Translations under genes and position numbers: made by a program
Origin: Azolla caroliniana
Taxonomy: Eukaryota; Plantae; Polypodiophyta
DNA length: 64,000 bases
Assembly: GCA_043228905.1 (NCBI GenBank)
Contig: JBHGNT010000022.1
Span: 3,658,001-3,722,000 of the forward strand
Reading direction: 5' to 3'
The notes under the pieces: model-generated
What the model saw: only the letters and a program-made list of their open reading frames with translations
Databases searched by the model: none
Told to the model about the DNA's origin: nothing
In this document: piece by piece, positions 1 through 46,828 of the stretch
Layout of the letters: each line of letters opens with the position of its first letter
Position numbering within the stretch: the first letter of the stretch is position 1

Positions 1-46
1 CTTCCCATTATTAGCACGACGCTCTAACCAACTGAGCTAATTGGCC
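1..46 (-). pseudogene. tRNA-Ile(AAU) copy 1, cut by window edge
   Basis: 5' half present; 3' side of the anticodon stem degraded (TGGGA). Confidence 0.85.
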
Positions 47-767
47 ATACACATAAAATGTTCCTTTTCACATTTTGAAAGTATCCAAAAACGTTATATA
101 CTCGTGCGACAAGAATGAATAAATAAATCCTTTCGAAACTTGTTATAGAGGTTTCTTGTTTGTGTTGCCTTTTCCTAATTATCATTTTATCCCCAACGTG
201 TAGATGTAGTCTATAATGATCGTTTTATATTACAAGTTATGAATTTATCCTCAACAAGCATACCCAATCAATAATGATCGATTTGGACTAAAAGGTATGA
301 TTTTATACTCTGGATATAGACCCAATGGTGAATGTTCACGACTTAATATGACTAAGTAGCTGAGCTTTTGTTTTTAATTTTTCTATTTGAAGTAAAGCCA
401 ATAACGAAGGATGATTTTATCTATAAGTGATCAATCAATATACTCGTGTTTTTAATTTTTCTATTTGAAGTAAAGTCAATAACGAAGGATCATTTTGATC
501 TATAAGTGATCAATCTATTCTCAAAAAATATGCCCAATCATGAATGATGATTTCCCTTTTTGAAGTTATTAATTTAATCTGAACAAGTATACCCAAATCA
601 TGAATGATCATTATTGTTTCCTTTATTCAATTTGAACTTATCACTTTGTACGCAACATACATACTTTTGTTTTAAATTTTTTTAGTATTTATCAACAAAC
701 TTGATGGCTACTGGAATGGTGAAGTTGTTAGAGAGCTTGGGAAATACTAATGAAGAATAGTTCATTG

Positions 768-841
768 TGGCCAATGGAGGTTTCGAACCTACGACCTTCA
801 CGTTATTAGCACGACGCTCTAACCAACTGAGCTAATTCACC
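768..841 (-). pseudogene. tRNA-Ile(AAU) copy 2, acceptor stem mismatched
   Basis: 5' end reads GGTGAAT against 3' ATTGGCC. Confidence 0.85.
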
Positions 842-1163
842 ATGTCTATTTTATATATTGCCAAGCATACACATAAAATGTTTCCTTTTCATATTTTGAA
901 ACTACACGAAAACGTTATATACTCGTGCGACATGAATGAATAAATAAATCTTTACCAAACTTGTTGTAGAGGCTTCCTGTTTGTGTCGCCTTTTCCTAAT
1001 TATGATTTTATCCTCAACGTGTAGATGTAATCTCTAATGATCGTTTTGTATTAGAAGTTATCATTTTATCGTAACGAAGAATACGCAATCAAGAATGATC
1101 GATTTGGACTAAAAGTTTTGACTTTATACTCTGGATATAGACCCAATCGTGAATGTTCACGAC

Positions 1164-1790
1164 TGTCCCACAACCAATCACATGACTCCACTCTGACATA
1201 GTGTCCTGGTGGTCCCACCTAGAACAACTCCAGCCCCTCCTCCGCAAAGCCATCACGAGCAACCTCCACCAAGCACAGCTACGCCAAAAACGACAACACG
1301 ATGCAGGCCGCGCCGACCATCAATACCATGTCGGCGACAAAGTCCTCATCTATTTCCCCATCCGTCGTCACGGCCGATGAATCGGTCCCTTCGAAGTTCA
1401 AAACCAGATACGCAACACTACATATCTGCTCCGTCGCACCTCCAACAACCGCTCTACCTTCGCCCACCAGTCTCGCATGAAGCCCTTCCATCAGCTACCA
1501 TTGCCCCCGTCCACACTCATGCCCACGCCCCCGCCCGTGTCATCCCCCCACCTAGAACCGTCGTCCACGCCCCGTGGCGATCCGACTGCACAATAAATTT
1601 ATTTTACAAGGGGGAACTGTGGCGGTCACATGGACAACACCCAAATTAGGCCACCTAAATTAGGCCCCTACAAGGCCCCCATAATTAGAAGAGCTAATTG
1701 AAGCGGGAGAACATCCTCCACGCGATGAGTAGTCTATAAAATGTAACTTGGAACGTAATGGAAAGTGAGCTATTCTTGAGAGCATTTCAG
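1164..1790 (+). mobile_element. Truncated LTR-like insertion
   Basis: GC-rich non-array sequence starting TGTCC, with TATAAAA near 1735. The array resumes at an earlier unit position, so there is no TSD. Confidence 0.55.
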
Positions 1791-2539
1791 AATATACTCG
1801 TGTGCCATGAATGAATAAATAAATCTTTTCCAAAGTTGTTGTAGAGGTTTCCTGTTAGTGTTGCCTATTCGTAATTATCATTTTATCTTCGATGTGTAGA
1901 TGTATTCCCTGATGATTGTCTTTTATTAGAAGTTATCATTTTATCGTGAAGAAGCATACCCAATCAAGAATGATCGATTTGGACTAAAAGTTATGATTTT
2001 ATCCTCAGGATATATAGCCAATCATGAATGTTCACGACTTAGTATGGCTAAGTAGCTTACCTTCTGTTTTTACTTTTTCTATTTGAAGTAAAGCCAATGA
2101 CGAATGATGATTTTGATCTATAAGTGATCAATCTATTCTCAAGAAATATGCCGAATCATGAATGATCATTTTCCTCTTCGAAGTTATTAATTTATTCTCA
2201 ATAAGTATACCCAATCCTTAATCATCATTTTGGTTTCCTTTATTCAATTTAAAGTTATCACTTTGTATTCAAAGGAAACCAAATCATGAAAGATCATTTT
2301 ATATGACAGGTTATACATCTAATCTCAAATTTAGCCAATCTTGAAAGATATGTCTAGATTGTAAGTTATAATTTTATCCTAAAAGTGTATAACCAATCGA
2401 CAAAAATCTCGCCTTTATATGCGGCAAGATACATACTTTTGTTTTAAATTTTTCTAGTCGTTGTCAACAAACTTTAGGGCTATTGGAATAGTAAAGTCGT
2501 TAGGGAGCTTGGGAAATACTAACGAAGACCAATTCATTG

Positions 2540-2613
2540 TGGCCAATGGAGGTTTCAAACTTGCGACCTTCGCGTTCTTAGCATGAAGCTCTAACCAACT
2601 GAGCTAATTCGCC
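2540..2613 (-). pseudogene. tRNA-Ile-derived copy 3, anticodon AAG, B-box mutated
   Basis: Anticodon loop CTAAGAA; T-loop TTTGAAA. Confidence 0.85.
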
Positions 2614-3424
2614 CTATTTGATATATTGCGAAGCCTAAACATAAAATGTTTCCCTTTCATATTTTGAAAGTATACGAAAACGTTATATACTCATGCGACA
2701 TGAATGAATAAATAAATCTTTTCCATACTGGTTGTAGAGGTTTCATGTTTGTGTTTCCTTTTCCTAATTATAATTTTATCCTCAACGTGTAGATGTATTC
2801 TCTAATGATCGTTTTGTATTAGAAGTTATCATTTTATCGTAAAGAAGCATACCCAATGAAAAATCCTCGATTTGTACTAAAAGTTACGATTTTATCCTCA
2901 GGATACATAACGAATCGTGAATGTTCACGAGGTAATATGGCTAGTCGCTTACCTTTTGTTTTTAATTTTTGTATTTGAGATAAACCAAATGACGAATAAT
3001 GATTTTAATTTATAAGTGATCAATCTATTCTCAAGAAATATGCCCAATCATGAATTTCCTTTTCGAAATTATTAATTTATTCTCAACAAGTATACCCAAT
3101 CATGAATGATCCTTTTGGTTTCCTTCATTCAATTCGAAGTTATCACTATGTATTTGAAGGAAACCAAATCAGAAAAGATCATTTTATATGAGAAGTTATA
3201 TATTTAATCTAAATTTTAGCCAATCTATAAGGATATGTTTGGATTATAGGTTATAATTTTATCCTAAAGGGGTATAACCAATCAACAATAATCTCACCTT
3301 AATATGCGGCCACATACATACTTTTGTTTTAAATTTTTCTAGTCTTTGTCAACAAACTTAATGGCTATTGGAATGGTGAAGTCATTAGAGAGCTTGGGAA
3401 ATACTAACGAAGACCAGTTCATTG

Positions 3425-3498
3425 TGTTCAATAGAGATTTCGAACCTGCGACCTTCGCGTTCTTAGCACGCTACTCTAACCAACTCACCTAATGAGCC
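3425..3498 (-). pseudogene. tRNA-Ile-derived copy 4, anticodon AAG, degenerate
   Basis: Several acceptor- and D-stem mismatches; loop CTAAGAA. Confidence 0.85.
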
Positions 3499-4406
3499 AT
3501 GTCTATTTTATATATTGCCAAGCCAACACATAGAATGTTTCCTCTTTATATTTTCAAAGTATATGGAAACATTATATACTTGTGCAACATGAATGAATAA
3601 ATAAATCTTTCCAAAACTTGTTGTAGAAGTTTCCTATTTGTGGTACCTTTTCCTAATTATCATTTTATCCTCAACGTGTAGATGTAGTCTCTAATGATCT
3701 TTTTGTATTAGAAGTTATCATTTTACTCTAACCAAGCACACCCAATCAAGAACGTTAGATTTGGACAAAAAGTTATGATTTTATCCTTACGATATATACC
3801 CAATCGTGAATGTTCACAACTTAATATGGTTAAATAGCTTAGTTTTTGTTTTTAATTATTCTTTTTGAGGTAAAGCTAATAACGAAGGATGATTTTATCT
3901 ATAAGTGATCAATCTATTGTCAAGAAATATGCCCAATCATGAATAATCATTTTCCTTTTTGAAATTATTAATTTATTATCAACAAGTATAGCCAATCCTT
4001 TTCCTTTTGGTTTCCCAATCATGAATGATCCTTTTGGTTTCCTTCATTCAATTCGAGACTATCGCTTCGACGGAAACCAAATCATGAATGATCCTTTTGG
4101 TTTCCTTCATTCAATTCGAGACTATCGCTTTGTATTCGACGGAAACCAAATCATGACTGATCATTTTATATGAGAAGTTATCAATTTAAACTCAATTTAA
4201 GCCAATCTTGAAGGATATGTGTGGATTACAAGTTACTATTTGATTCTAAAGGTGTGTAGCCAATCGACAATAATCTCGCCTTAATATGCGCCAACATACA
4301 TATTTCTGTTTTAAATTTTGCTTGTGGTTGTCTAAAAACTTTGTGGCTATTCGTATGGTGAAGTTGTTAGAGAGCATAGGAAATACTAACAAAGACCAGT
4401 TCATCG

Positions 4407-4480
4407 TGGCCAATGGAGGTATCGGACCAGCGACCTTCGTGTTACTAGCACGACGCTCTAACAAACTGAGCTAATTGGCC
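4407..4480 (-). pseudogene. tRNA-Ile-derived copy 5, anticodon AGT
   Basis: TCGTG-CTAGTAA-CACGA; T-loop TCCGATA; G18 lost. Confidence 0.85.
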
Positions 4481-5331
4481 ATGTTTATTTAATATTTTGC
4501 CAAGCCGACACATGAAAGGTTTCCTTTCCATATTTTGAAAGTATACAAAAACTTTATATACTCGTGCGACATGAATGAATTAATAAATCTTTTCCAAACA
4601 TGTTGTAGAGGTTTCTTGTGTGTGTTGCCTTTTCCAAATTATCATTTTATCCTCAACCTGTAGATGTGCTCTCTAATGATCATTTTGTGTTAGAAGTTAT
4701 CATTTTATCAAAACAAAGAATACCCAATCAAGAATGATCGATTTGGACTAAAAGTTTCGACTTTATACTTAGAATATAGACCCTTCACGTGTAGATGTAT
4801 TATTGTTTTATCGTCAACGTGTAAATATATTCTCTAATCATCGTTTTGTATTAGAAGTTATCATTTTATGGTAAAGAAGTATACCCAATCAATAATGATC
4901 GATTTTGACTAAAGGTTATGATTCTACCGTCACGATATATACCCTTAACGTGGAGATGGATTATCATTTTATCCTCATCGTGTAGACATATTCTTTTGGT
5001 TTCCCAATCATGAATGATACTTTTGGTTCCCTTCATTCAATTCGAGACTATCACTTTGTATTCGACGGAAACCAAATCATGAATGATCATTTTATATGAG
5101 AAGTTATCAATTTAATCTCAATTTTACCCAATCTTGAAAAATATATGTGGATTACAAGTTACTATTTTATTCTAAAGGTGTGTAGCCAATGGACAATAAT
5201 CTCGCCTTAATATGCGGCAACATACATATTTCTCTTTTAAATTTGCTTGTCGTTGTCTACATACTTTATGGCTATTCGTATGGTGAAGGTGTTAGAGAGC
5301 TTGGGAAATACTAACGAAGACCAATTCATCG

Positions 5332-5405
5332 TGGCCAATGGAGGTTTCGAACCTGAGACCTTCGCGTTATTACCACGACGCTCTAACCAACTGAGCTAAT
5401 TGGCC
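5332..5405 (-). tRNA. tRNA-Ile(AAU) copy 6 (C32G, G49T)
   Basis: A and B boxes intact; extra T-stem mismatch. Confidence 0.75.
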
Positions 5406-5955
5406 ATGTTTATTTAATATTTTGCCAAGCCGACACATAAAAGGTTTCCTTTCCATATTTTGAAAGTATACAAAAACTTTATATACTCGTGCGACATGAA
5501 TGAATAAATAAATTTTTTCCAAACATGTTGTAGAGGTTTCCTATGTGTGTTGCCTTTTCCTAATTACAATTTTATCCTCAATCGTTATGATACTACCTAA
5601 TCGTGTAGATGTATTATTTTGGTTTCCCAATCATGAATGATCCTTTTGGTTTCCTTCATTCAATTACAAGCTATCGCTTTGTATTCGACGGAAACCAAAT
5701 CATGAATGGTCATTTTATACGAGAAGTTATCAATTTAATCTCAATTTTAGGCCATCTTGAAGGATATGTGTGGATTACAAGTTACTATTTTATTCTAAAG
5801 GTGTGTAGCCAATCGACAATAATTTGGCCTTAATATGCGCCAACATACATATTTCTGTTTTAAATTTTGCTTCTCGTTGTCTACAAACTTTGTGGATATT
5901 CGTATGGTGAAATTGTTAGAGAGCTTAGGAAATACTAACGAAGACCAGTTCATCG

Positions 5956-6029
5956 TGGCCAATGGAGGTTTCGAACCTGAGACCTTCGCGTTATTACCAC
6001 GACGCTCTAACCAACTGAGCTAATTGGCC
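5956..6029 (-). tRNA. tRNA-Ile(AAU) copy 7 (same sequence as copy 6)
   Basis: Lies in a near-exact 624-bp duplication. Confidence 0.75.
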
Positions 6030-6579
6030 ATGTTTATTTAATATTTTGCCAAGCCGACACATAAAAGGTTTCCTTTCCATATTTTGAAAGTATACAAAAA
6101 CTTTATATACTCGTGCGACATGAATGAATAAATAATTTTTTTCCAAACATGTTGTAGAGGTTTCCTATGTGTGTTGCCTTTTCCTAATTACAATTTTATC
6201 CTCAATCGTTATGATACTACCTAATCGTGTAGATGTATTATTTTGGTTTCCCAATCATGAATGATCCTTTTGGTTTCCTTCATTCAATTACAAGCTATCG
6301 CTTTGTATTCGACGGAAACCAAATCATGAATGGTCATTTTATACGAGAAGTTATCAATTTAATCTCAATTTTAGGCCATCTTGAAGGATATGTGTGGATT
6401 ACAAGTTACTATTTTATTCTAAAGGTGTGTAGCCAATCGACAATAATTTGGCCTTAATATGCGCCAACATACATATTTCTGTTTTAAATTTTGCTTCTCG
6501 TTGTCTACAAACTTTGTGGATATTCGTATGGTGAAATTGTTAGAGAGCTTAGGAAATACTAACGAAGACCAGTTCATCG

Positions 6580-6653
6580 TGGCCAATGGAGGTTTCGCAC
6601 CAGCAACCTTCGCGTTATTAGCACGACGCTCTAACAAACTGAGATAATTGGCC
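6580..6653 (-). pseudogene. tRNA-Ile(AAU) copy 8, A and B boxes mutated
   Basis: T-loop TGCGAAA; G18 lost. Confidence 0.85.
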
Positions 6654-7344
6654 ATGTTTATTTAATATTTTGCCAAGCCGACACATGAAAGGTTTCCTTT
6701 CCATATTTTGAAAGTATACAAAAACTTTATATCCTCGTGCGACATGAATGAATAAATAAATCTTTTCCAAACATGTTATAGAGGTTTCTTGTGTGTGTTG
6801 CCTTTTCCTAATTATCATTTTATCCTCAACCTATAGATGTGCTCTCTAATGATCGTTTTGTATTAGAAGTTATCATTTTATCGTAACAAAGAATACCCAA
6901 TCAAGAATGATCGATTTTGACTAAAGGTTATGATTCTACCGTCACGATATATACCCTTAACGTGGAGATGGATTATCATTTTATCCTCATCGTGTAGACA
7001 TATTCTTTTGGTTTCCCAATCATGAATGATCCTTTTGGTTTCCTTCATTCAATTCGAGACTATCGCTTTGTATTCGACGGAAACCAAATCATGAATGATC
7101 ATTTTATATGAGAAGTTATCAATTTAATCTCAATTTTACCCAATCTTGAAGAATATGTGTGGATTACAAGTTACTATTTTATTCTAAAGGTGTGTAGCCA
7201 ATGGACAATAATCTCGCCTTAATATGCGCCAACATCCATATTTCTGTTTTAAATTTTGCTTGTTGTTGTCTACATACTTTATGGCTATTCGTATGGTGAA
7301 GGTGTTAGAGAGCTTGGCAAATACTAACGAAGACCAATTCATCG

Positions 7345-7418
7345 TGGGCAATGGAGGTTTCGAACCTACGACCTTCGCGTTATTAGCACGACGCTCTAAC
7401 CAACTGAGCTAATTGGCC
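7345..7418 (-). tRNA. tRNA-Ile(AAU) copy 9
   Basis: One acceptor-stem mismatch; C50T. Confidence 0.75.
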
Positions 7419-7968
7419 ATGTTTATTTAATATTTTGCCAAGCCGACACATAAAAGGTTTCCTTTCCATATTTTGAAAGTATACAACAACTTTATATACT
7501 CGTGCGACATGAATGAATAAAAAATAAATTTCCAAACATGTTGTAGAAGTTTTCTATATGTGTTGCCTTTTCCTAATTATCATTTTATCCTCAATCGTTA
7601 TGATACTACCTAATCGTGTAGATGTATTCTATTGGTTTCCCTATCATGAATGATCCTTTTGGTTTCCTTCATTCAATTCCAAGCTATCGCTTTGTATTCG
7701 ACGGAAACCAAATCATGAATGATCATTTTATACGAGAAGTTATCAATTTAATCTAAATTTTAGGCCATCTTGAAGGATATGTGTGGATTACAAGTTACTA
7801 TTTTATTCTAAAGGTGTGTAGCCAATCGACAATAATTTGGCCTTAATATGCGCCAACATACATATTTCTGTTTTAAATTTTGCTTCTCGTTGTCTACAAA
7901 CTTTGTGGATATTCGTATGGTGAAATTGTTAGAGAGCTTAGGAAATACTAACGAAGACCAGTTCATCG

Positions 7969-8042
7969 TGGCCAATGGAGGTTTCGGACCAGCAACCTTC
8001 GCGTTCTTAGCACGACGCTCTAACAAACTGAGCTAATTGGCC
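7969..8042 (-). pseudogene. tRNA-Ile-derived copy 10, anticodon AAG
   Basis: Loop CTAAGAA; T-loop TCCGAAA. Confidence 0.85.
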
Positions 8043-8893
8043 ATGTTTATTTAATATTTTGCCAAGCCGACACATGAAAGGTTTCCTTTCCATATTTTGA
8101 AAGTATACAAAAACTTTATATCCTCGTGCGACATGAATGAATAAATAAATCTTTTCCAAACATGTTGTAGAGGTTTCTTGTGTGTGTGGCCTTTTCCTAA
8201 TTATCATTTTATCCTCAACCTTTAGATGTGCTCTCTAATGATCGTTTTGTATTAGAAGTTATCATTTTATCCTAACAAAGAATACCCAATCAAGAATGAT
8301 CGATTTGGACTAAAAGTTTTGACTTTATACTCAGAATATAGACCCTCCACGTGTAGATGTATTATCGTTTTATCGTCAACGTGTAAATGTATTCTCTAAT
8401 CATCGTTTTGTATTAGAAGTTATCATTTTATGGTAAAGAAGTATACCCAATCAAGAATGATCGATTTTGACTAAACGTTATGATTCTACCGTCACAATAT
8501 ATACCCTTAACGTGGAGATGGATTATCATTTTATCCTCATCGTGTAGACATATTCTTTTGGTTTCCCAATCATGAATGATCCTTTTGGTTTCCTTCATTC
8601 AATTCGAGACTATCGCTTTGTATTCGACGGAAACCAAATCATGAATGATCATTTTATATGAGAAGTTTTCAATTTAATCTCAATTTTAGCCAATCTTGAA
8701 GAATATGTGTGGATTACAAGTTACTATTTTATTCTAAAGGTGTGTAGCAATGGACAATAATCTCGCCTTAATATGCGGCAACATACATATTTATGTTTTA
8801 AAATTTGGTTGTTGTTGTCTACAAACTTTATGGTTATTCGTATCGTGAAGGTGTTAGAGAGCTTGGGAAATACTAATGAAGACCAATTAATCG

Positions 8894-8967
8894 TGGCCAA
8901 TGGAGGTTTCGAACCTGCGACCTTCGTGTTATTAGAACGACGCTCTAACCAACTGAGCTAATTGGCC
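8894..8967 (-). tRNA. tRNA-Ile(AAU) copy 11
   Basis: 31:39 mismatch; otherwise near consensus. Confidence 0.75.
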
Positions 8968-9817
8968 ATGTTTATTTAATTTTTTTCCAAGCCGACACAT
9001 AAAAGGTTTCCTTTCCATATTTTGAAAGTATACAAAAACTTTATATACTCGTGCGACATGAATGAATAAATAAATCTCTTCCAAACATGTTGTAGAGGTT
9101 TCATGTGGGTGTTGCCTTTTCCTAATTATCGGTTTATCCTCAACGTGTAGATGTGCTCTCTAATGATCGTTTTGTATTAGAAGTTATCATTTTATCGTAA
9201 CAAAGAATACCCAATCAAGAATGATCGATTTGGACTAAAAGTTTTGACTTTATACTCAGAATATAGACCCTTCACGTGTAGATGTATTATCGTTTTATCG
9301 TCAACGTGTAAATGTATTCTCTAATCATCGTTTTGTATTAGAAGTTATCATTTTATGGTAAAGAAGTATACCCAATCAAGAATGATCGATTTTGACTAAA
9401 GGTTATGATTCTACCGTCACGATATATACCCTTAACGTGGAGATGGATTATCATTTTATCCTCATCGTGTAGACATATTCTTTTGGTTTCCCAATCATGA
9501 ATGATCCTTTTGGTTTCCTTCATTCAATTCGAGACTATCGCTTTGTATTCGACGGAAACCAAATCATGACTGATCATTTTATATGAGAAGTTATCAATTT
9601 AATCTCTATTTTACCCAATCTTGAAGAATATGTGTGGATTACAAGTTACTATTTTATTCTAAAGGTGTGTAGCAATGGACAATAATCTCGCCTTAATATG
9701 CGGCAACATACATATTTCTCTTTTAAATTTGCTTGTCGTTGTCTACATACTTTATGGCTATTCGTATGGTGAAGTTGTTAGAGAACTTGGGAAATACTAA
9801 CGAAGACCAATTCATCG

Positions 9818-9891
9818 TGGCCAATGGAGGTTTCGAACCTGAGACCTTCGCGTTATTACCACGACGCTCTAACCAACTGAGCTAATTGGCC
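9818..9891 (-). tRNA. tRNA-Ile(AAU) copy 12 (copy-6 type)
   Basis: Same C32G and G49T variant as copy 6. Confidence 0.75.
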
Positions 9892-10441
9892 ATGTTTATT
9901 TAATATTTTGCCAAGCCGACACATAAAAGGTTTCCTTTCCATATTTTGAAAGTATACAAAAACTTTATATACTCGTGCGACATGAATGAATAAATAAATT
10001 TTTTCCAAACATGTTGTAGAGGTTTCCTATGTGTGTTGCCTTTTCCTAATTATCATTTTATCCTCAATCGTTATGAGACTACCTAATTGTGTAGATGTAT
10101 TCTTTTGGTTTCCCAAACATGAATGATCTATTTGGTTTCCTTCATTCAATTACAAGCTATTGCTTTGTATTCGACGGAAACCAAATCATGAATGATCATT
10201 TTATACGAGAAGTTATCAATTTAATCTTAATTTTAGGCCATCTTGAAGGATATGTGTGGATTACAAGTTACTATTTTATTCTAAAGGTGTGTAGCCAATC
10301 GACAATAATTTCGCCTTAATATGCGCCAACATACATATTTCTGTTTTAAATTTTGCTTGTGGTTGTCTCCAAACTTTATGGCTATTCGTATGGTAATGTC
10401 CTCAGAGAGCTTGGGAAATACTAACGAAGACCAGTTCCTCG

Positions 10442-10515
10442 TGGCCAATGGAGGTTTCGAGCCTGCGACCTTCGCGTTATTAGCACAACGCTCTAACCAA
10501 CTGAGCTAATTGGCC
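10442..10515 (-). tRNA. tRNA-Ile(AAU) copy 13 (T54C)
   Basis: B-box reads GGCTCGAAACC. Confidence 0.7.
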
Positions 10516-10829
10516 ATGTGTATTTAATATTTTGCCAAGCCGACACATGAAAGGTTTCCTTTTCATATTTTGAAAGTATACAAAAACTTTATATCCTCGT
10601 GCGACATGAATGAATAAATAAATTTTTTCAAACATGTTATAGAGGTTTGCTGCTCGGGGGCTCCACTATATATAAAGAGGTTATATCACATGCGTTCATG
10701 ACATCTTTTATAAACCCCTTATACATATGGTTTTTACTATTTTAGATACCCTTCTATGAAAAAAGGACTAATAAAAATACCCCTTGGGGCCAGTATATAT
10801 TTTGAAAATAGCTCATTTTAAATGCCCTT

Positions 10830-36400: not shown

Positions 36401-36835
36401 GGCGAGAGAGTACTGACCGAAATATTTGATGAGTTGCTCGGAGGTAGGATTGTCAATCGTGTAGATGCCTCCCTCCGGAACGCCTATTAGCGCACGGATC
36501 GCCTCCTCCGTGATCACTTCTGTGTCGATTTCTTTGATAATCTTTTCGGCCTCCTTGTGTGGCACCGCCTCCATGATCGTTAGGAAACCCTCTAGTCCGT
36601 GCTGCCGTAGCCATTTCTTGGTGGCTTCAGACAGTGTTTGGCAATCCATCTCTGCGTCGAGGTAGGAGAGCGTTGGCGAGGTTTGGTGTTGGGGAGAGTG
36701 TGAGAGAGAAAGTTCTGAGGGAGGGGGTTCTCTGTGTGCGAGCTCTCTGTGAATGATCTTCACACGTCTATCTACGTCTGTTCTCCTTGGTTCGCGATAG
36801 GACAAGGTCTCGATATGTGGGGATTTTCTCTCTGC
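33485..36835 (-). mobile_element. 3' fragment of an LTR retrotransposon: accessory coiled-coil ORF followed by a truncated LTR (33899 to about 33485)
   Basis: The minus strand starts TGTGAAAGG at 33899 with TATAAAGG downstream; upstream are broken ORFs 36107-36856, 35681-36043 and 33997-34755; no TSD. Confidence 0.65.
33997..36830 (-). pseudogene. Broken ~900-aa accessory ORF (globular N-terminus, low-complexity linker, E/K/R/Q-rich coiled coil)
   Basis: Consecutive minus-strand ORF pieces; no gag or pol motif recognised. Confidence 0.6.
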
Positions 36836-37144
36836 AACCAAATCATGAATGATCAATTTATATGAAAAGTTATCAATTTAATCTCAATTTTAGCCAATCT
36901 TGAAGGATATGTGTCGATTACAAGTTACTATTTTATTCTTAAGGTGTGTAACCAATCAACAATAATCTCGCCTTAATATGCGGCAACATACATATTTCTG
37001 TTTTAAATTTTTCTTGTCGTTGTTAACAAACTTTATGGCTATTCGTATGGTGATTTTTCTTGTTGTTGTCAAAAAACTTTATGGCTATTCGTATGGTGAA
37101 GGTGATAGAGAGCTTGGGAAATATTAACGAAGACCAGTTCATCA

Positions 37145-37218
37145 TGGCCAATGGAGGTTTCGAACCTGCGACCTTCGCGTTATTAGCACGACGCTCTAAC
37201 CAACTGAGTTAATTGGCC
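37145..37218 (-). tRNA. tRNA-Ile(AAU) copy 22 (G10A)
   Basis: One change from the array consensus. Confidence 0.78.
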
Positions 37219-38070
37219 ATTTCTATTTCATATTTTGCCAAGCCTACACATGAAAGGTTTCCTTTTCATATTTTGAAAGTATACAAAAACTTTATATACT
37301 CGTGCGACATGAATGAATAAATAAATCTTTTCCAAACTTGTTGTAGAGGTTTCCTATTTGTGTTGCCTTTTCCTAATTATCATTTTATCCTCAACCTGTA
37401 GATGTGTTCTCTAATGATCATTTTGTATTAGAAGTTATCATCTTATCGTAAACAAGCATACCCAATGAAGAATGATCGATTTGAACTAAAAGCTATGATT
37501 TTATCCTCAGGATATATACCTTTAACATGTAGATGTATTATCATTTTATCATCAACGTGTAGATGTATTGTCTAATAATCGTTTTATATTAGAAGTTATC
37601 ATTTTATCGTAAAGAAGCATACCCAATCAAGAATTATCGATTTTCAGTAAAGGTTATGATTCTACCCTCAGGATATATACCCTTAACGTGGAGATGTATT
37701 ATCATTTTATCCTTATCGTGTAGATGTATTGTTTTGGTTTCCCAATTATGAATGATCCTTTTGGTTTCCTTTATTCAATTCGAAACTATCACTTTGTATA
37801 TGACAGAAACGAAATAATGAATGATCATTTTATATGAGAAGTTATCAATTTAATCTCAATTTTAGCTAATCTTGAAAGATATGTGTGGATTACAAGTTAC
37901 TATTTTATTCTAAAGGTGTATAACCAATCGACAAAAATCTCGCCTTAATATGCAGCAACATACATATTTCTATTTTAAATTTTTCTTGTCGTTGTCAAGA
38001 AACTTTATGACTATTCGTATGGTGAAGGTTTTAGAGAGCTTGGGAAATACTAACGAAGACCAGTTCATTG

Positions 38071-38144
38071 TGGCCAATGAAGGTTTCAAACCTGCAACCG
38101 TCGCGCTATTAGCACGACGCGTTTACCAACTGAGCTAATTGGCC
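38071..38144 (-). pseudogene. tRNA-Ile(AAU) copy 23, defective variant
   Basis: D-stem GCTC/ACGC broken; T-loop TTTGAAA. Confidence 0.88.
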
Positions 38145-38966
38145 ATGTCTATTTCATATTTTACCAAGGCTACACATTGAAGGTTTCCTTTTCATATTTT
38201 GAAAGTATACAAAAACTTTATATACTCATGCGACATGAATGAATAAATAAATCTTTTCCAAACTTGTTGTAGAGGTTTCGTGTTTGTGTTGCCTTTTCCT
38301 AATTATCATTTTATCCTCAACATGTAGACGTGTTCTCTAATGATCATTTTGTATTAGAAGTTATCATTTTATCGTAAACAAGAATACCCAATGAAGAATG
38401 ATCGATTTGGACTAAAAGTTATGATTTTATCCTTAGGATATATACCCTTAACGTGTAGATGTATTCTCTAATCATCGTTTTGTATTAGAAATTATCATTT
38501 TATCGTAAAGAAGCATACCCAATCAAGAATTATCGATTTTCAGTAAAGGTTATGATTCTACCCTCAGGATATATACCCTTAACGTGGAGATGTATTATCA
38601 TTTTATCCTTATCGTGTAGATGTATTGTTTTGGTTTCCCAATTATGAATGATCCTTTTGGTTTCCTTTATTCAATTCGAAACTATCACTTTGTATATGAC
38701 AGAAACGAAATAATGACTGATCATTTTATATGAGAAGTTATCAATTTAATCTCAATTTTAGCTAATCTTGAAAGATATGTGTGGATTACAAGTTACTATT
38801 TTATTCTAAAGGTGTATAACCAATCGACAAAAATCTCGCCTTAATATGCAGCAACATACATATTTCTATTTTAAATTTTTCTTGTCGTTGTCAAGAAACT
38901 TTATGACTATTCGTATGGTGAAGGTTTTAGAGAGCTTGGGAAATACTAACGAAGACCAGTTCATTG

Positions 38967-39040
38967 TGGCCAATGAAGGTTTCAAACCTGCAACCGTCGC
39001 GCTATTAGCACGACGCGTTTACCAACTGAGCTAATTGGCC
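38967..39040 (-). pseudogene. tRNA-Ile(AAU) copy 24, same sequence as copy 23
   Basis: 896-bp period. Confidence 0.88.
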
Positions 39041-39862
39041 ATGTCTATTTCATATTTTACCAAGGCTACACATTGAAGGTTTCCTTTTCATATTTTGAAA
39101 GTATACAAAAACTTTATATACTCATGCGACATGAATGAATAAATAAATCTTTTCCAAACTTGTTGTAGAGGTTTCGTGTTTGTGTTGCCTTTTCCTAATT
39201 ATCATTTTATCCTCAACATGTAGACGTGTTCTCTAATGATCATTTTGTATTAGAAGTTATCATTTTATCGTAAACAAGAATACCCAATGAAGAATGATCG
39301 ATTTGGACTAAAAGTTATGATTTTATCCTTAGGATATATACCCTTAACGTGTAGATGTATTCTCTAATCATCGTTTTGTATTAGAAATTATCATTTTATC
39401 GTAAAGAAGCATACCCAATCAAGAATTATCGATTTTCAGTAAAGGTTATGATTCTACCCTCAGGATATATACCCTTAACGTGGAGATGTATTATCATTTT
39501 ATCCTTATCGTGTAGATGTATTGTTTTGGTTTCCCAATTATGAATGATCCTTTTGGTTTCCTTTATTCAATTCGAAACTATCACTTTGTATATGACAGAA
39601 ACGAAATAATGACTGATCATTTTATATGAGAAGTTATCAATTTAATCTCAATTTTAGCTAATCTTGAAAGATATGTGTGGATTACAAGTTACTATTTTAT
39701 TCTAAAGGTGTATAACCAATCGACAAAAATCTCGCCTTAATATGCAGCAACATACATATTTCTATTTTAAATTTTTCTTGTCGTTGTCAAGAAACTTTAT
39801 GACTATTCGTATGGTGAAGGTTTTAGAGAGCTTGGGAAATACTAACGAAGACCAGTTCATTG

Positions 39863-39936
39863 TGGCCAATGAAGGTTTCAAACCTGCAACCGTCGCGCTA
39901 TTAGCACGACGCGTTTACCAACTGAGCTAATTGGCC
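39863..39936 (-). pseudogene. tRNA-Ile(AAU) copy 25, same sequence as copy 23
   Basis: 896-bp period. Confidence 0.88.
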
Positions 39937-40758
39937 ATGTCTATTTCATATTTTACCAAGGCTACACATTGAAGGTTTCCTTTTCATATTTTGAAAGTAT
40001 ACAAAAACTTTATATACTCATGCGACATGAATGAATAAATAAATCTTTTCCAAACTTGTTGTAGAGGTTTCGTGTTTGTGTTGCCTTTTCCTAATTATCA
40101 TTTTATCCTCAACATGTAGACGTGTTCTCTAATGATCATTTTGTATTAGAAGTTATCATTTTATCGTAAACAAGAATACCCAATGAAGAATGATCGATTT
40201 GGACTAAAAGTTATGATTTTATCCTTAGGATATATACCCTTAACGTGTAGATGTATTCTCTAATCATCGTTTTGTATTAGAAATTATCATTTTATCGTAA
40301 AGAAGCATACCCAATCAAGAATGATCGATTTAGACTAAAGGTTATGATTCTACCCTCAGGATATATACCCTTAACGTGGAGATGTATTATCATTTTATCC
40401 TTATCGTGTAGATGTATTGTTTTGGTTTCCCAATTATGAATGATCCTTTTGGTTTCCTTTATTCAATTCGAAACTATCACTTTGTATATGACAGAAACGA
40501 AATAATGACTGATCATTTTATATGAGAAGTTATCAATTTAATCTCAATTTTAGCTAATCTTGAAAGATATGTGTGGATTACAAGTTACTATTTTATTCTA
40601 AAGGTGTATAACCAATCGACAAAAATCTCGCCTTAATATGCAGCAACATACATATTTCTATTTTAAATTTTTCTTGTCGTTGTCAAGAAACTTTATGACT
40701 ATTCGTATGGTGAAGGTTTTAGAGAGCTTGGGAAATACTAACGAAGACCAGTTCTTTG

Positions 40759-40832
40759 TGGCCAATGAAGGTTTCAAACCTGCAACCGTCGCGCTATTAG
40801 CACGACGCGTTTACCAACTGAGCTAATTGGCC
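40759..40832 (-). pseudogene. tRNA-Ile(AAU) copy 26, same sequence as copy 23
   Basis: 896-bp period. Confidence 0.88.
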
Positions 40833-41461
40833 ATGTCTATTTCATATTTTACCAAGGCTACACATTGAAGGTTTCCTTTTCATATTTTGAAAGTATACAA
40901 AAACTTTATATACTCATGCGACATGAATGAATAAATAAATCTTTTCCAAACTTGTTGTAGAGGTTTCGTGTTTGTGTTGCCTTTTCCTAATTATCATTTT
41001 ATCCTCAACATGTAGACGTGTTCTCTAATGATCATTTTGTATTAGAAGTTATCATTTTATCGTAAACAAGAATACCCAATGAAGAATGATCGATTTGGAC
41101 TAAAAGTTATGATTTTATCCTTAGGATATATACCCTTAACGTGTAGATGTATTCTCTAATCATCGTTTTGTATTAGAAATTATCATTTTATCGTAAAGAA
41201 GCATACCCAATCAAGAATGATCGATTTAGACTAAAGGTTATGATTCTACCCTCAGGATATGAGATGTATTATCATTTTATCCTGATCGTGTAGATGTATT
41301 GTTTTGGTTTCCCAATCATGAATGATCCATTTGGTTTCCTTTATTCAATTCGAAAATATCATGTGTTAAATTTTTCTTGTCGTTGTCAACAAATTTTATG
41401 GCTATTCGTATGGTGAAGGTGTTAGAGAGCTTGGGAAATACTAACGAACACCAGTTCATCG

Positions 41462-41535
41462 TGGGCAATGGAGGTTTCGAACCTACGACCTTTGCGTTAT
41501 TAGGACGACTCTCTAACCAATTGAGCTAATTCGCC
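41462..41535 (-). pseudogene. tRNA-Ile(AAU) copy 27, degenerate
   Basis: Mismatches in several stems. Confidence 0.85.
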
Positions 41536-42358
41536 ATGTCTATTTCAAGATTGCCAAGCCTATACATGAAAGGTTTGCTTTTCATATTTTGAAAGTATAG
41601 GAAAACTTTATATACTTGTGCGACATGAATGAATAAATAAATCTTTTCCAAACTTGTTGTAGAGGTTTTGTGTTTGTGTTGCCTTTTCCTAATTATCATT
41701 TTATCCTGAACGGGTAGATGTGTTCTCTAATGATCATTTTGTATTAGAAATTATCATTTTATCGTAAACAATCATACCCAATCAAGAATGATTGATTGGA
41801 ACTAAAAGTTATGATTTTATCCTTAGGATATATACCGAATTGTGAATGTTCACGACTTAATATGGCGAAGTAGGTTATGTTTTGGTTTTAATTTTTCTAT
41901 TTGAAGTAAGCCCAATCACGAAGGATGATTTTGATCTAGAAATGACCAATCTATATTCTCAAGAAATATGCCCAATCATGAATGAATATTTTTCTTTTCC
42001 AAGTTATTAATTTATTCTCAACATGTATACCCAATCATGAATGATCATTTTGGTTTCCTTTATGCAATTCGAGGTTATCAATTTGTATTCGAAGGAAATC
42101 AAATCATGAATGATAATTTTATATGAGAGGTTATAAATTTAATCTTAAGTTTAGCCAATATTGAAGGATATGTCTCGATTACAAGTTACATTTTTATCCT
42201 AAAGGTGTATAACTAAACGACAATAAGCTCGCCTTAATATGCGGTAACATACATACTCTTGTTTTAAAATTTTCTAGCCGTTGTCAACAAACTTTTTGGC
42301 TATTTGAATGGTGAAGTAGCTAGACAACTTGGGATGTAGTTACGAAGACCAGTTCATC

Positions 42359-45300
42359 AGATTTTCTGCCAAAACTTGGTGATAATTCTGTGAGGAACTT
42401 GATATGTGTGCCAGACTTTTGTAGCAGTCGGCTCTCGAGCAGTTTGAGCGGGTAGAATGTGGTTACCCAATCTAGTTGTGAATTGGAAGAGAGGGATGGG
42501 TTTGCTTCTTTGCCCCGTGGAAGGATCACGCCATGTCCATTGCCATGGGTCCAAACTGACCTTACGTAGCCATGTGTTTTCATGAGTACATATGTGCCAA
42601 TCGGGTTGTACTTTGATCAGATCAGGATCGACAATCCATTTATGACAACTATAAGTGAGTACTGGGATTGCGTTTTTCTGTGCGGCTCGCAATTCAGAGC
42701 CTTCGATTCTGTTTGGTGTTCCCCTACCTCTCGGGATCAAAGATCCCTCCTCTTCGTAGCCTATCCATTTCTCCATTGTCGTCGTTTGAGTAGCAGCTTC
42801 CCTAATCAGTAGAGCATTAATGATTTCCAATCTCATAGTCCATCCGCCCCTGATTCCATGGAGTATGTTTTCTTGATCTTGTAGTTGCAGTGACATAAAC
42901 CGTCTCCAACATTCTATACTTTTTCCTAGACCTTCTGCAATGTATCCCCATGACAATCCCTTACTTGATCCAAGTAGTTAATGAGATTCATCCTTGATAC
43001 ATGGGTTCCGTAGGATACGTGGACTTAGCCAGGCAGGTTCGGAACTCGGATGATCACACTTGAGCCCTCGTCTAATGCCACACCATGCCTTCCACATGGA
43101 TGCACTGAATCTATCCTCGAATTGGCGGGAGAAACTAGGTTTCAGATCCATGTTTAGAATCCATCCCGTTTGGGGGGCCCAATTGACCCCTTTTCGTGGC
43201 TTGAAGTAAGTGAAACGTAATCGCAGTAGCATTTTCCAACAGTCATTTCCTGGTTGGAGTCCTCGCACCACAAATTTGGCAAGTAAGGCTTTTGATTGTG
43301 AGAGGGGATCAATAAGACCCAATCCCCCTCTCGATTTAGGAGTTGTGAGTATAGGCCACGCCACCTTACCAGACCAAATGTAGTTGCATACCAATCATTC
43401 AATCTGATGTATACTTTCCTTGGAGATTGTCCAACATGATAGATTGTACCATGTTGTTACGAGTAGTACCTGGTTTGCCACTATGATTTGACCCGCTAGC
43501 AACAGTTTTTTCAAACTCCAATGTATCAACTTTTGTCGAATGGAATGAATAATGGGTGTAATCATAGTGGTCGGCAGTATGTTGAAACCAATTTGGAAAC
43601 CAAAATATTTGGTGCTCGCTCCTTGAGTGATCCATTTTAAAGTGGGATGTGGGTGCCAAGTAGGATGTGTTTCATGAGAAAGCCATATTGCACATGATTT
43701 GTGCCAATTGATCATGGCATTGGATCTCTTGCAGAATATGGATAACCCACTTTCTCGCTTTTGTAGGTTTTCCAAGTCCCCTTGCAGGTAGACCGTTGTG
43801 TCATCTACAAATTCTATATCGAGGATGCTTTGGTGAGAATGAGGCACGGGAAGACCACGTAGGTTGAGATGCTGCGAGTTGAGAAAGCAAGAGAGTGCTT
43901 TAGCGTCTAGAAGAAATAAGGATGGAGCTAGTGGGCAACCCTGTCGTACAGATCGGGATATTCGGAAAAAGGGGCCCCGTTCACCTGCTAGTGAAACGTA
44001 GTTGTTGTCGTTCCTATAAAGTTTTGCAATGCCTTTGACCCATGTCTATTGAAAGACGAGTTTCCCCATCACACTTTCTAGAAAGTTTCAGCATACCCTG
44101 TCATATGCTTTCTCAAAATCTAGTAGCACCACCGCTACCTTGTTGTTGGTACACTTGGCAAGGGCGACTACTTCCCAGAATGAGAAGAGGTTATCTAGGA
44201 TTCTCTTGATTTCTAATGAAACCTATCTTGGATGGATGAATGAGTTGAGGGAGAAGTGGTGTTAAACGGCGTGCCACGATTTCTGCGAGAAACTTATAGA
44301 CATTATTGAGAAGAGTTATGGGTCATCACTTGCTAATGTCATTGGCACTCCCACCACTTTTAGGAATGAGATGTATCATCCCCTATCCAAATTCCTTTGG
44401 CATGTTTCCAGAGGTGATGATCTCCTCATTTTCCTGGAGGAGGTCTTCTTTCGTACTGTCCCAAAGGCATGTGAAAAAGTGAGGGGTGAGGTCGTCGATT
44501 CCGGGGCAAATATTTGCATCCAAATTAGAGAGGGCCTCCCATATCTCGATGATTGATAGGGGCCGCACGAGCCATGTATTCATTTCCTTCGTGACTTTCG
44601 CGGGTATGCTTTGGAGGATAATAACTTTTCTTATGTCTTCCCCTGTGGCCATAGTATCTTCGGTAAGTAGGCGCTTATAGTAACTTGTGGCAATATTCCT
44701 CATTTCGTCGCCATCCTAAGTGGTCGTTCCATCCTCTCAGTTGAGGCTGTGCATCATTGTGCTAGCGTGTCTCGGGTCATTGGAGCGGAATAATTCCTTC
44801 GTGGTTTTGTCCCCTACTTGAAACGAGCGCGCCATCCTTCCATGAAATTCCATATCATATATTTCCTTTTCCACCATGTTGAGTTCATGTTTGGCCATGG
44901 CAACTTGTCCTGCGATCCAGCTACATGACGGGTATCTCTGTTGGAGTCATTGTAAGGCTATTAGTCCCTGTTTTGTCCTCAGTCACTTTTCCTGAGCATC
45001 CTGGCTTCTGCTCTTGACAATCTCATGTAGGAGAGTTGAAGCTCTTGTTAATTTAGCTAGAAGTTTGTCAGATGTTGATGAGTCATTGAAGGGTAATGAC
45101 CATTGGTTGGAGATTTGTTCCTTCACCTCTATAATTGTGTAAATAGTGTGTGGGATGTGAAGCTGGAATGGCTAACCGACGACCGGGTAATGATCAGAGA
45201 AAGTCTTGCCTAGAGTTATGCTACACCACCCTCCCTTCACTTCGAGAGCCTCGCCCACATAAATGCGGTCAATGCGAGATAGATTGGGTCCGCTATTCTG

Positions 45301-46141
45301 TCCGTCTGATCGGGAGAATAAAAGAGAGTCGGTTTTTTGTTGGAAGTTGTCAGAATGCCAGATGTCTCACAAGTTAAGGTGTACACATTGTTAGGAAACA
45401 AGTCCCTCCGGATGGGAAGTGAGAAGAACTGTGTTGATGGCCGAAACCGGAAATCGTGGAGATAGCCAACACGAAAGGCTAAACTTGTAAATAGTCGAAA
45501 GGTTACATTAGTATATAAGTACTTAGGGCAATCATGTTAGATATGTGCGTTATTGTAAAGTTACTGTTGATGAGGTTGTTGCCTTCGTAACTGTGAGAGT
45601 GAATGAGTGTGAGTGGAAGCGTGTGAGCTCCATAGCCGCCTGTTGGCGAAGCAGGATCTTGAGGTCAATGCCTCTGAGATCTCTGATTGTATTCCTTTCT
45701 CTCATAGTATTCTATTTCGGAGTTTGTGGACTCCACGTGGTTTTTTCCTAGTTCGGGTTTCCACGTTAAAATCTGTGTCATTCTCAGTTTCTGTATTCTG
45801 TTTTTCCCTTCCATTAGATTGACTATTATTCCACACACGTACAACCAGTTCTAGCCGGCAACGATTTTAACTTCACACATATCTTCTCCCATTGTTTACG
45901 TTCCCTTCCTTGTAGAACTATGGGGTTGTTGTTAGCGCTATCATGAATGGATTCGATCATATTAAAATTCCCTCGAATGGACCACTCATCCACATCTGCT
46001 ACTTGTAAGCGGATGCGTTCCCACAATGTTGCCCTTTCTGTTTTGTTATTTGGAGCATAAACATTGATGAAACACTAGCATTGCCCTTGGATGGCCAACA
46101 TGCAAAAATGTGCCCTACCAGGTATAAGTGATTCCTCTTGC
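42359..46141 (-). mobile_element. Degenerate L1/Tx1-type LINE (endonuclease remnant plus RT), truncated at both ends
   Basis: WSIRGNFNMIE (endonuclease-like); CPGIDDLTPHFF; LDFEKAYDR near 44100; RQGCPLAP near 43930; EFVDD; KSRGGLGLIDP. Related to the LINE at 21821-24637. Confidence 0.92.
45389..45875. mobile_element. Solo LTR inside the LINE
   Basis: TG...CA termini; TSD CACAT (45384-45388 / 45876-45880); TATA-like TATATAA near 45512. Confidence 0.88.
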
Positions 46142-46376
46142 GAGAAGTCATAAATTGAATCTCAAATTTAACCGATCTTGAAGGTAAACTCTGGATAACA
46201 TGTTACAATTTTATCATACATGAGTATAAACAATCACCAATAATATTGCCTTAATATGCCGAAGCATACATACTTTTGTTTTAAATTTTTATAATCGTTG
46301 TCAACAAACTTTATGACTATTCGAATGGTGAAGTCGATAGAGAGCTTGGGAAGTACTGACGAAGACCAGTTCATTT

Positions 46377-46450
46377 TGGCCAATGGAGGTTTCGAACATA
46401 CAACATTTGCGTTATTAGCACGACGCTCTAACCAACTGAGCTAATTGGCC
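46377..46450 (-). pseudogene. tRNA-Ile(AAU) copy 28, T and variable arms degenerate
   Basis: 5' half matches consensus; T-stem reads GTATG. Confidence 0.85.
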
Positions 46451-46828
46451 ATGTCGATTTTATATATTGCCAAGCCTACACATACAATGTTTCCTTTTCA
46501 CATTTTGAAACTACACGAAAACATTTTATACTCATGTGACATGAATGAATAAATAAATCTTTTCCAAACTTGTCGTAGAGGTTTCCTATTCCGAATTATC
46601 ATTTTATCCTCTGTTGAGAGTCGAACTCAACTTCCCATAGAGATAGGTTTCACACTAGCTCATGGACACACTAGGCTAGTTCTGTAAATAGTTGAAAGGG
46701 CACTTGCCCTTTAAACCAACGCATTGTAACTTAGTTGTTGTTGGAAGTAATATACAGTTTCTTGTTCGATCTCTCTCTCTGTTGATTCTTTACATGGTGT
46801 CATGAAGACATACATTTTGGCCTTACAA

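What the first reader, a model, noticed from the sequence alone, without database searches (positions are those of the whole stretch)
1..46611. A tRNA-Ile(AAU) gene amplified as a satellite: at least 28 head-to-tail copies
Seen: 28 co-oriented copies with tRNA-to-tRNA distances of 885, 982, 925, 624, 624, 765, 624, 925, 924, 624, (918), 626, 925, 911, 926 x4, 926, 896 x3 and 703 bp. The array continues beyond the left edge. Only one copy (30526-30599) equals the consensus, and changes hit stems and promoter boxes freely. Known: tandem tDNA clusters occur in plants (Arabidopsis tRNA-Pro and Tyr-Tyr-Ser clusters) and are largely silenced. Inference: this array evolves as satellite DNA rather than to raise tRNA dosage, and may be a heterochromatic or centromere-linked TFIIIC platform in a non-seed plant.
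Basis: partly seen in the sequence, partly recalled or inferred. Interest (0 to 1): 0.72.

Follow-up and report, generated by a model that had tools for sequence, protein, structure and literature searches.

The report
Tandem tRNA arrays under hidden selection
A plant genome holds about 160 tandem copies of an isoleucine tRNA gene in three arrays; single copies decay freely, but changes in the tRNA almost never spread through an array while changes in the spacer do, so selection likely keeps the arrays making a working tRNA rather than letting them drift as junk satellite DNA.

Summary
The array is real: 28 minus-strand tRNA-Ile(AAT) copies in the window, 45 in the whole cluster, 80 in a sister array on contig C15, and a third array with an unrelated spacer 0.8 Mb away. 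At least 10 ordinary dispersed genes exist. The arrays turn over like satellites (higher-order repeats, transposon insertions, methylation-type mutations), and rare changes hit the tRNA as often as the spacer. But variants that became common or fixed avoid the tRNA: 1 of 74 sites against 60 of 323 spacer sites. The deficit holds outside the promoter boxes and is absent in a dead tRNA relic of the third array. So the neutral-satellite reading fails. This is the pattern of rDNA arrays, likely selection on the array as a whole. Oddities: all 125 copies of the window type lack one T-stem pair, and few have a nearby terminator. Within the window's own clade the signal is only borderline and 3 of 28 copies look intact, so this array is likely the ageing one. 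Expression is untested. Ile arrays are known from maize and a moss. The scan's notes held no earlier report of this array.

The parts
1..1144 (-). Array block 1: cut tRNA-Ile copy (1-46) and copy 768-841; the array continues left of the window (17 more copies)
1165..1789 (.). 625-bp dispersed repeat inserted in a spacer (77-83% alike to two places on C15; LTR- or TRIM-like, not classified)
1792..10652 (-). Array block 2: 11 copies (2540, 3425, 4407, 5332, 5956, 6580, 7345, 7969, 8894, 9818, 10442); units of 624-982 bp; two copies read AAG and one AGT at the anticodon
10653..26421 (.). 15.8-kb compound insertion in a spacer; the unit resumes with a few bases repeated
12240..19218 (+). Ty3/gypsy element with chromodomain, LTRs of about 460 bp at K2P 0.034, broken frames
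19650..20250 (-). Intronless, broken copy of ribosomal protein S8 (processed pseudogene); ends approximate
21874..24786 (-). LINE-type reverse transcriptase frame (RVT_1 + zf-RVT)
26422..33455 (-). Array block 3: 8 copies (27138, 27764, 28689, 29600, 30526, 31452, 32378, 33304), mostly 926-bp units
29600..29673 (-). Intact-looking tRNA-Ile(AAT) copy (no broken pair beyond the family's T-stem mismatch)
30526..30599 (-). The copy equal to the majority of both arrays; differs from dispersed genes at gene positions 5, 60, 65, 69
32378..32451 (-). Intact-looking tRNA-Ile(AAT) copy
33456..36835 (.). 3.4-kb dispersed repeat replacing part of a spacer; no Pfam match
36836..42358 (-). Array block 4: 6 copies (37145, 38071, 38967, 39863, 40759, 41462); four share the same 8 tRNA changes in near-identical 896-bp units
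42359..46141 (.). 3.8-kb insertion with a reverse-transcriptase fragment (43398-44045, minus strand)
46142..46611 (-). Last, old unit of the array with copy 46377-46450

Best explanation
This is a tandem cluster of tRNA-Ile(AAT) genes, one of three in the genome, in which single copies mutate freely while tRNA changes rarely become common, so it is likely a birth-and-death gene array kept by purifying selection on the array as a whole for a tRNA-shaped product. Shown: the copy numbers, the satellite-like turnover, equal rates of rare change in tRNA and spacer, and the lack of common or fixed tRNA changes. Inferred: unequal crossing-over copies units at random; loss of one copy among about 160 is nearly invisible to selection, but spread of a damaged tRNA through much of an array is selected against. 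Inferred by analogy with the Arabidopsis Ser-Tyr-Tyr cluster: the arrays are methylated, mostly silent, and switched on in some cell type or condition as extra tRNA-Ile supply. The C15 array was likely seeded from the C22 cluster by capture into a DNA break inside an LTR, and the window's array is likely the ageing member.
For: Deep-branch changes (clades of 4 or more of 82 distinct copies): tRNA 6, seven flank windows 29-42, each window left out of the tree in turn; terminal changes 188 vs 141-172; flank tree length predicts 36. Tree-free: common (20%) or fixed variants at 1 of 74 tRNA sites vs 60 of 323 flank sites, p 2.6e-5; rare alleles 1.53 vs 1.49 per site. Majorities of C22 and C15 differ at 0 of 74 tRNA sites and 55 of 630 spacer sites, p 0.0025. 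The one common tRNA variant is at position 51, the base that is already unpaired. Constraint outside the boxes: 4 of 49 vs 14.9 expected; acceptor stem 0 of 15. It ends sharply at the gene ends. Third array: spacer unalignable, tRNA 69 of 74 identical with a fully paired T stem; common variants 5 of 74 vs 42 of 227 (p 0.016), four of them pair-neutral, while the co-amplified dead relic shows 4 of 74 vs 12 of 179 (p 1). Array genes carry a compensatory acceptor pair (positions 5/69) relative to dispersed genes. C15 junctions split one LTR at a single site with microhomology and a short inverted piece of the unit.
Against: None of 125 window-type copies has the paired base at position 65; the cloverleaf is 7-9 kcal/mol weaker than in dispersed genes (-19.5 vs -26.3 to -28.6). 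A T4 terminator lies within 110 nt of only 27 of 125 copies but of 8 of 8 dispersed genes. Only 4 of 45 C22 copies look intact, against 26 of 80 on C15 and 5 of 32 in the third array. Inside the young C22 clade (26 distinct copies, most of the window) the deficit is weak: deep changes 2 vs 6-15, tree-free p 0.05-0.4, and mean pairwise divergence of tRNA equals that of spacer (ratio 1.01). At a 10% cut-off the contrast shrinks (15 of 74 vs 107 of 323, p 0.036), and alleles seen in 4-7 C22 copies are not depleted (0.18 vs 0.11 per site). A damaged unit was recently copied four times. P values treat sites and events as independent, which recombination violates. No expression data.
Confidence: 0.6

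Rival explanations
1. Molecular drive without benefit to the plant: copies that are transcribed and processed serve as preferred donors in repair (for example RNA-templated conversion), which keeps the tRNA part uniform within and between arrays.
For: Conservation stops exactly at the mature tRNA ends. A T-stem mismatch is fixed in all 125 copies and never repaired, as expected if uniformity rather than function is kept.
Against: Dispersed genes would be donors too, yet their bases at positions 60 and 65 occur in 0 of 125 copies, and the ends they could not supply (positions 1-5, 60-74) are also free of common variants (0 of 20, p 0.016). Differences between gene types are mostly compensatory pairs. 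The mechanism still needs an expressed, folded RNA.
Confidence: 0.17
2. The window-type RNA is kept for a role other than bulk translation: a tRNA-like RNA with a weakened T stem that is a poor elongation-factor substrate, a source of tRNA fragments, or part of long read-through polymerase III transcripts.
For: Mismatch at the 50-64 pair (standard numbering) fixed in two arrays while the rest is constrained; first T4 at a median of 268 nt (C22) and 194 nt (C15) downstream, and 30 of 77 C15 spacers have no T4 at all. That pair 50-64 tunes elongation-factor binding is recalled knowledge.
Against: Anticodon AAT is kept in 119 of 125 copies and the anticodon arm is constrained (1 of 18 deep sites vs 5.5 expected). 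The third array keeps a fully paired version. No retrotransposon primer site matches the tRNA-Ile end.
Confidence: 0.14
3. Neutral satellite DNA that happens to contain a tRNA gene (first reader; the reading that PMC2886086 gave for the Arabidopsis array).
For: Equal rare-variant rates, higher-order repeats and amplified damaged copies, most copies broken. It may describe the window's own block today.
Against: Deep and common variants are about six-fold depleted in the tRNA although it is richer in mutable CG/CHG sites; the dead relic in the third array behaves like spacer while the live gene does not.
Confidence: 0.06
4. A TFIIIC-binding or centromere-linked chromatin platform in which only the promoter boxes matter.
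For: About three quarters of the fetched DNA around both arrays is repeated, mostly LTR elements.
Against: Constraint is no weaker outside the boxes than in them; host genes lie 9 kb (C15) and about 50 kb (C22) away; only two contigs carry this repeat.
Confidence: 0.03

Closest known systems
Arabidopsis Ser-Tyr-Tyr (SYY) and Pro tDNA clusters (PMC7544208 passages; PMC12308677 abstract, passages and first part of Discussion; PMC2886086 passages)
   Same: Tandem tRNA genes in heterochromatin, a cluster-specific isodecoder that differs from dispersed genes by a compensatory pair plus position 59, many pseudogenes, worst copies at the ends. Read as neutral in 2010, later found expressed in root-cap cells with a deletion effect.
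   Different: Single isotype here; three arrays on two contigs, about 160 copies against at least 10 dispersed genes; a fixed unpaired T-stem position; no near terminator; methylation and expression not measured here.
tRNA-Ile clusters of maize chromosome 2 (28 copies; PMC11700998 passages) and tandem tRNA-Ile(AAT)/Cys(GCA) clusters of 26, 18 and 14 identical genes in the moss 'Cpu' (PMC12652284 passages; supplement not readable)
   Same: Homocluster of tRNA-Ile, in the moss with the same AAT anticodon.
   Different: Those were described as counts of genes, in the moss of identical genes; here the copies are diverged, more numerous, built into higher-order repeats, and a test of constraint is possible. 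Their sequences were not compared.
rDNA and 5S rDNA arrays (PMC10462631 passages; Kellogg and Appels 1995 seen only as a title in reference lists, content recalled)
   Same: Coding and spacer parts differ in high-frequency but not in low-frequency variants; pseudogenes tolerated; birth-and-death with array-level selection.
   Different: rDNA arrays are the only source of their RNA; here dispersed genes already supply tRNA-Ile, so the reason for selection is open.
tRNA-derived SINEs and satellites (recalled)
   Same: Many tRNA-like copies with shared flanks, methylation-type decay.
   Different: Copies are not dispersed, have no SINE body or tail, keep a full cloverleaf with anticodon, and the tRNA part is constrained.

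Membership tests
Plant tDNA homocluster (definition in PMC13578239: 5 or more genes of one isotype within 5 kb) | At least 5 tRNA genes of one family within 5 kb | tested here: met
   For example 6 copies in 27138-31525 and 7 in 4407-8967.
Plant tDNA homocluster | Cluster-specific isodecoder distinct from dispersed genes | tested here: met
   Four fixed differences from 8 dispersed genes; this 3' end found only in the two arrays, 93 of 93 matches.
Plant tDNA homocluster | High DNA methylation and silencing in most tissues | tested here: inconclusive
   CG/CHG transition excess points to methylation; methylation and silencing themselves were not measured.
Functional tRNA-Ile(AAU) gene | Fully paired cloverleaf with invariant bases | tested here: not met
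   20 of 21 pairs; pair 51-65 (gene numbering) is C.C in the majority; invariant bases present. Met by the third array's main type.
Functional tRNA-Ile(AAU) gene | Oligo(T) terminator near the 3' end | tested here: not met
   T4 within 110 nt in 27 of 125 copies, against 8 of 8 dispersed genes.
Functional tRNA-Ile(AAU) gene | Mature, charged RNA | not testable with these tools
   No usable RNA run; see Tried and rejected.
Satellite DNA (neutral tandem repeat) | Head-to-tail units with higher-order repeats and concerted evolution | tested here: met
   5,882-bp repeat with 16 and 18 mismatches between neighbours; C15 copies form one clade, UFBoot 99.
Satellite DNA (neutral tandem repeat) | No part of the unit constrained as a gene product | tested here: not met
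Centromeric repeat | Present on all chromosomes in gene-free CENH3 domains | tested here: not met
   Two contigs only; host genes within 9-55 kb. CENH3 itself not testable.
tRNA-derived SINE | Dispersed copies with tail and target-site duplications | tested here: not met
   All matches sit in tandem clusters; spacer search scored 40 of 126 candidates, all on C22 or C15.

The most novel reading that the evidence does not exclude
This lineage keeps, by selection, large heterochromatic arrays of a dedicated tRNA-Ile variant with a fixed T-stem mismatch and no near terminator, transcribed as long or polycistronic polymerase III RNAs for a specialised job (cell-type-specific supply, or a non-translational RNA), and renews them by seeding new arrays into retrotransposon LTRs as old ones decay.
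Probability: 0.18. Interest if true: 0.75.

Novelty: new variant of a known kind. Interest (0 to 1): 0.5.

Why it matters
A 2026 review (PMC13578239, passages) calls it unresolved whether plant tRNA clusters are adaptive or by-products. The usual argument for 'by-product' is that they are full of broken copies (PMC2886086). This genome shows that broken copies and selection go together: with three arrays, a dead relic as built-in control and array-specific bases that allow read assignment, the question becomes directly testable here, and the same frequency test can be run on maize, moss and Arabidopsis clusters. A constrained tRNA with a fixed T-stem mismatch also asks how much imperfection a cytosolic tRNA can carry. 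My searches found no report of such a frequency-based test on a plant tRNA cluster; most subscription papers and the supplement of PMC12652284 were not visible.

Tried and rejected
Expression: no RNA holder listed; the one possible RNA run laid on the spacer, X13, gave 0 records; neither is evidence. Two other-species runs (X11, X12) gave 0 and 1 short record on the spacer at 80% likeness; a filter can hide contigs, so this is no proof of absence. Whole-genome-duplication origin of the two arrays: flanks share only transposons, neighbouring genes differ, and two of them have no close paralog at the other array; only two genes were tested. Primer for an LTR family: one genome match to the tRNA-Ile end plus CCA, not a tRNA or primer site. 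Sequencing errors as the source of copy variation: rejected because variants repeat across higher-order blocks, are enriched at CG/CHG and appear in short-read contigs; the high transversion share is unexplained. Conversion from dispersed genes: rejected. Upstream CAA motif: absent in most array copies (3 of 125) but also in 5 of 8 dispersed genes, so not diagnostic. Kellogg and Appels 1995 was not held. Look-ups in the scan's notes by place, words and sequence returned nothing on this array. Rows dropped: 16 of 125 copies with under 85% flank cover and 27 duplicates before the tree tests; 13 of 66 hits of the third array fitted neither class.
Full report
Observation. The window holds 28 copies of a 74-nt tRNA-Ile(AAT) gene, all on the minus strand, the first cut by the edge. 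ARAGORN finds 25 and Rfam 26. The largest holds a chromodomain gypsy element (LTR distance K2P 0.034), a LINE frame and a processed S8 pseudogene. The array is not an assembly artefact: 208 contigs of run X1 cover the spacer with a wide range of likeness. X1 may be the sample the genome came from, so it shows the DNA exists, not that it is widespread; 10 of 15 listed runs from 5 studies hold part of the stretch, and I laid only one of those ten.

The family in the genome. The window is C22:3,658,001-3,722,000 of a 523-Mb assembly. In 264 kb around it there are 45 copies over 109 kb; in 200 kb of C15 there are 80 copies over 93 kb with the same spacer family. A pattern for the array-type 3' end gives 93 matches, all in these two clusters. 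Patterns for a paired T stem give 8 dispersed genes and 2 more with a variant pair. The same search revealed a third array at C22:2.730-2.784 Mb (66 ungapped hits, 73 by BLAST) whose spacer does not align with the window's. About 157 Ile-type array copies thus face at least 10 dispersed genes. Pattern searches miss more diverged genes, so these are lower bounds.

The gene. The majority of the window and C15 arrays differs from the dispersed genes at four places: gene positions 5 and 69, which swap one acceptor pair for another; position 60 in the T loop; and position 65, which leaves a C.C mismatch at the second T-stem pair (50-64 in standard numbering, my mapping). No copy of 125 has the dispersed base at 60 or 65. 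The cloverleaf is -19.5 kcal/mol against -26.3 to -28.6. The third array shares the 5/69 pair, is identical at 69 of 74 positions and has a fully paired T stem through two other pairs. Terminators are poor: T4 within 110 nt in 9 of 45 and 18 of 80 copies, against 8 of 8 dispersed genes; 30 of 77 C15 spacers have none before the next tRNA. Copies with no further broken pair, 13 invariant bases and AAT: 4 of 45 on C22 (3 in the window), 26 of 80 on C15, 5 of 32 in the third array.

Satellite-like turnover (shown). Units vary from 313 to 982 bp by deletion and sub-repeats. C15 has a 5,882-bp, 12-unit higher-order repeat with 16 and 18 mismatches between neighbours and a 3,878-bp one. In the window a unit with 8 tRNA changes was copied four times. 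CG and CHG transitions run about 8-fold above A/T transitions on C22, as expected of methylated DNA. Rare alleles are as frequent in tRNA as in flank (1.53 vs 1.49 per site) and in stems as in loops.

The test that changes the reading. I aligned 82 bp upstream, the tRNA and 250 bp downstream for 109 of 125 copies (82 distinct). With each 74-bp window left out of the tree in turn, changes on branches to 4 or more copies number 6 in the tRNA and 29-42 in seven, partly overlapping, flank windows, while terminal changes number 188 and 141-172. The flank tree predicts 36 deep changes; allowing for the tRNA's CG content raises this to 45. Without any tree, sites with an allele at 20% or more, or fixed between arrays, are 1 of 74 against 60 of 323 (p 2.6e-5); the contrast holds at 15-30% and is weaker at 10%. 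The single tRNA site is position 51, the unpaired C, though it is also a CHG site. Among CG/CHG sites, 1 of 16 in the tRNA and 8 of 19 in the flank reach that class. The majorities of the two arrays differ at 0 of 74 tRNA and 55 of 630 spacer sites. The deficit covers the acceptor stem (0 of 15) and the part outside the A and B boxes (4 of 49 vs 14.9) and stops at the gene ends. The third array gives a control: its live type has 5 of 74 common variants against 42 of 227 (p 0.016), four of them harmless to pairing, while its dead relic has 4 of 74 against 12 of 179 (p 1).

Limits of that test. Sites and branches are not independent under unequal crossing-over and conversion, so p values are optimistic. 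Much of the signal lies on the branches leading to the young C22 clade and to C15. Within the young C22 clade alone the deficit is 2 vs 6-15 deep changes, and tree-free p is 0.05-0.4; pairwise tRNA and spacer divergence are equal there. Alleles in 4-7 C22 copies are not depleted; I read them as repeated CG/CHG hits, which is inference. So constraint is well supported for the family's history and for C15, and only borderline for the window's block today.

History (inferred). C15 copies form one clade (UFBoot 99) that groups weakly (73) with middle-aged C22 copies; the most diverged copies sit at the ends of the C22 cluster (the root is placed on an old C22 copy and is uncertain). The C15 array splits an LTR at one site with microhomology and a short inverted templated piece, which fits capture during break repair. 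Neighbouring genes differ between the sites (aspartokinase, HD-ZIP IV, MACPF, DUF1635, F-box on C22; ALDH, Tubby, PsbP on C15) and two tested genes have no close paralog at the other site, so a genome duplication is not the cause.

How it likely works. Units are copied and lost by unequal crossing-over. One damaged copy among many costs little, so rare damage builds at the neutral rate. A damaged lineage that takes over much of an array lowers output and is removed, so common variants avoid the tRNA. rDNA arrays show the same frequency dependence (PMC10462631, passages). What the output is for is not shown. The nearest precedent is the Arabidopsis Ser-Tyr-Tyr cluster: judged neutral from its pseudogenes (PMC2886086, passages), found methylated and silent (PMC7544208, passages), then found expressed in root-cap cells with an effect of its deletion (PMC12308677, abstract, passages and first part of Discussion). 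I put 0.6 on a like role as conditional tRNA-Ile supply, 0.17 on drive through transcribed donors, 0.14 on a non-translational RNA, 0.06 on neutral satellite and 0.03 on a TFIIIC or centromere platform.

Comparison and novelty. Tandem tRNA-Ile genes are in print for maize (PMC11700998, passages) and, with the AAT anticodon, for a moss (PMC12652284, passages; its supplement could not be read and may hold comparable sequences). This locus meets the definition of a plant tDNA homocluster (PMC13578239, passages). It works like an rDNA-type array; it is not a neutral satellite, a SINE or a centromeric repeat by the features tested. It fails two features of an ordinary tRNA gene (full pairing, near terminator), so I do not file the window-type copies as proven functional genes. 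New in degree and detail: three arrays outnumbering dispersed genes about 15 to 1, a constrained variant with a fixed T-stem mismatch, seeding into an LTR, and a measurable signature of array-level constraint with an internal control. Whether the plant is a non-seed plant was not tested; an unchecked note of this scan (e1-10587443) says 'likely a fern'. Verdict: new variant of a known kind, interest 0.5.

Noticed in passing
G000:C22:2,730,504-2,784,472 (L069, L074-L078): Third tRNA-Ile(AAT) array, mostly plus strand, unrelated spacer; a fully paired type (32 copies analysed) alternates with a dead tRNA-Ile relic with six broken pairs (21 analysed); the last five hits are inverted.
   Followed up: yes
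G000:C15:13,024,540 and 13,118,447 (L025, L034): The 80-copy array splits one LTR at a single site; 5 shared bases on both sides, 8-base microhomology at the right junction, a 36-base inverted piece of the unit at the left junction.
   Followed up: yes
G000:C15:13,086,241-13,106,300 and 13,106,842-13,114,600: Higher-order repeats of 5,882 bp (12 tRNA units, 99.7% alike) and 3,878 bp; 30 of 77 spacers lack any T4 on the coding strand.
   Followed up: partly
window 19650-20250 (minus): Processed pseudogene of ribosomal protein S8 inside the 15.8-kb insertion; several other broken S8 copies exist in the genome.
   Followed up: partly
G000:C19:4,020,880-4,021,415 (L070): A dispersed tRNA-Ile gene followed by three more copies of its 3' end at 154-bp spacing: a possible array in the making.
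   Followed up: no
both arrays: Transversions outnumber transitions at A/T sites (0.026 vs 0.011 on C22; 0.017 vs 0.006 on C15); unexplained.
   Followed up: no
window 2540, 7969, 4407: Anticodon changes to AAG (two copies) and AGT (one copy); both kinds carry other damage, so mistranslation is unlikely.
   Followed up: no
window 33456-36835: T-rich, 54% GC dispersed repeat with 256- and 282-codon frames and no Pfam match; several relatives on C22.
   Followed up: partly
window 46612-64000: Nested gypsy and copia fragments, with 10-bp tandem repeats in LTR-like ends.
   Followed up: no
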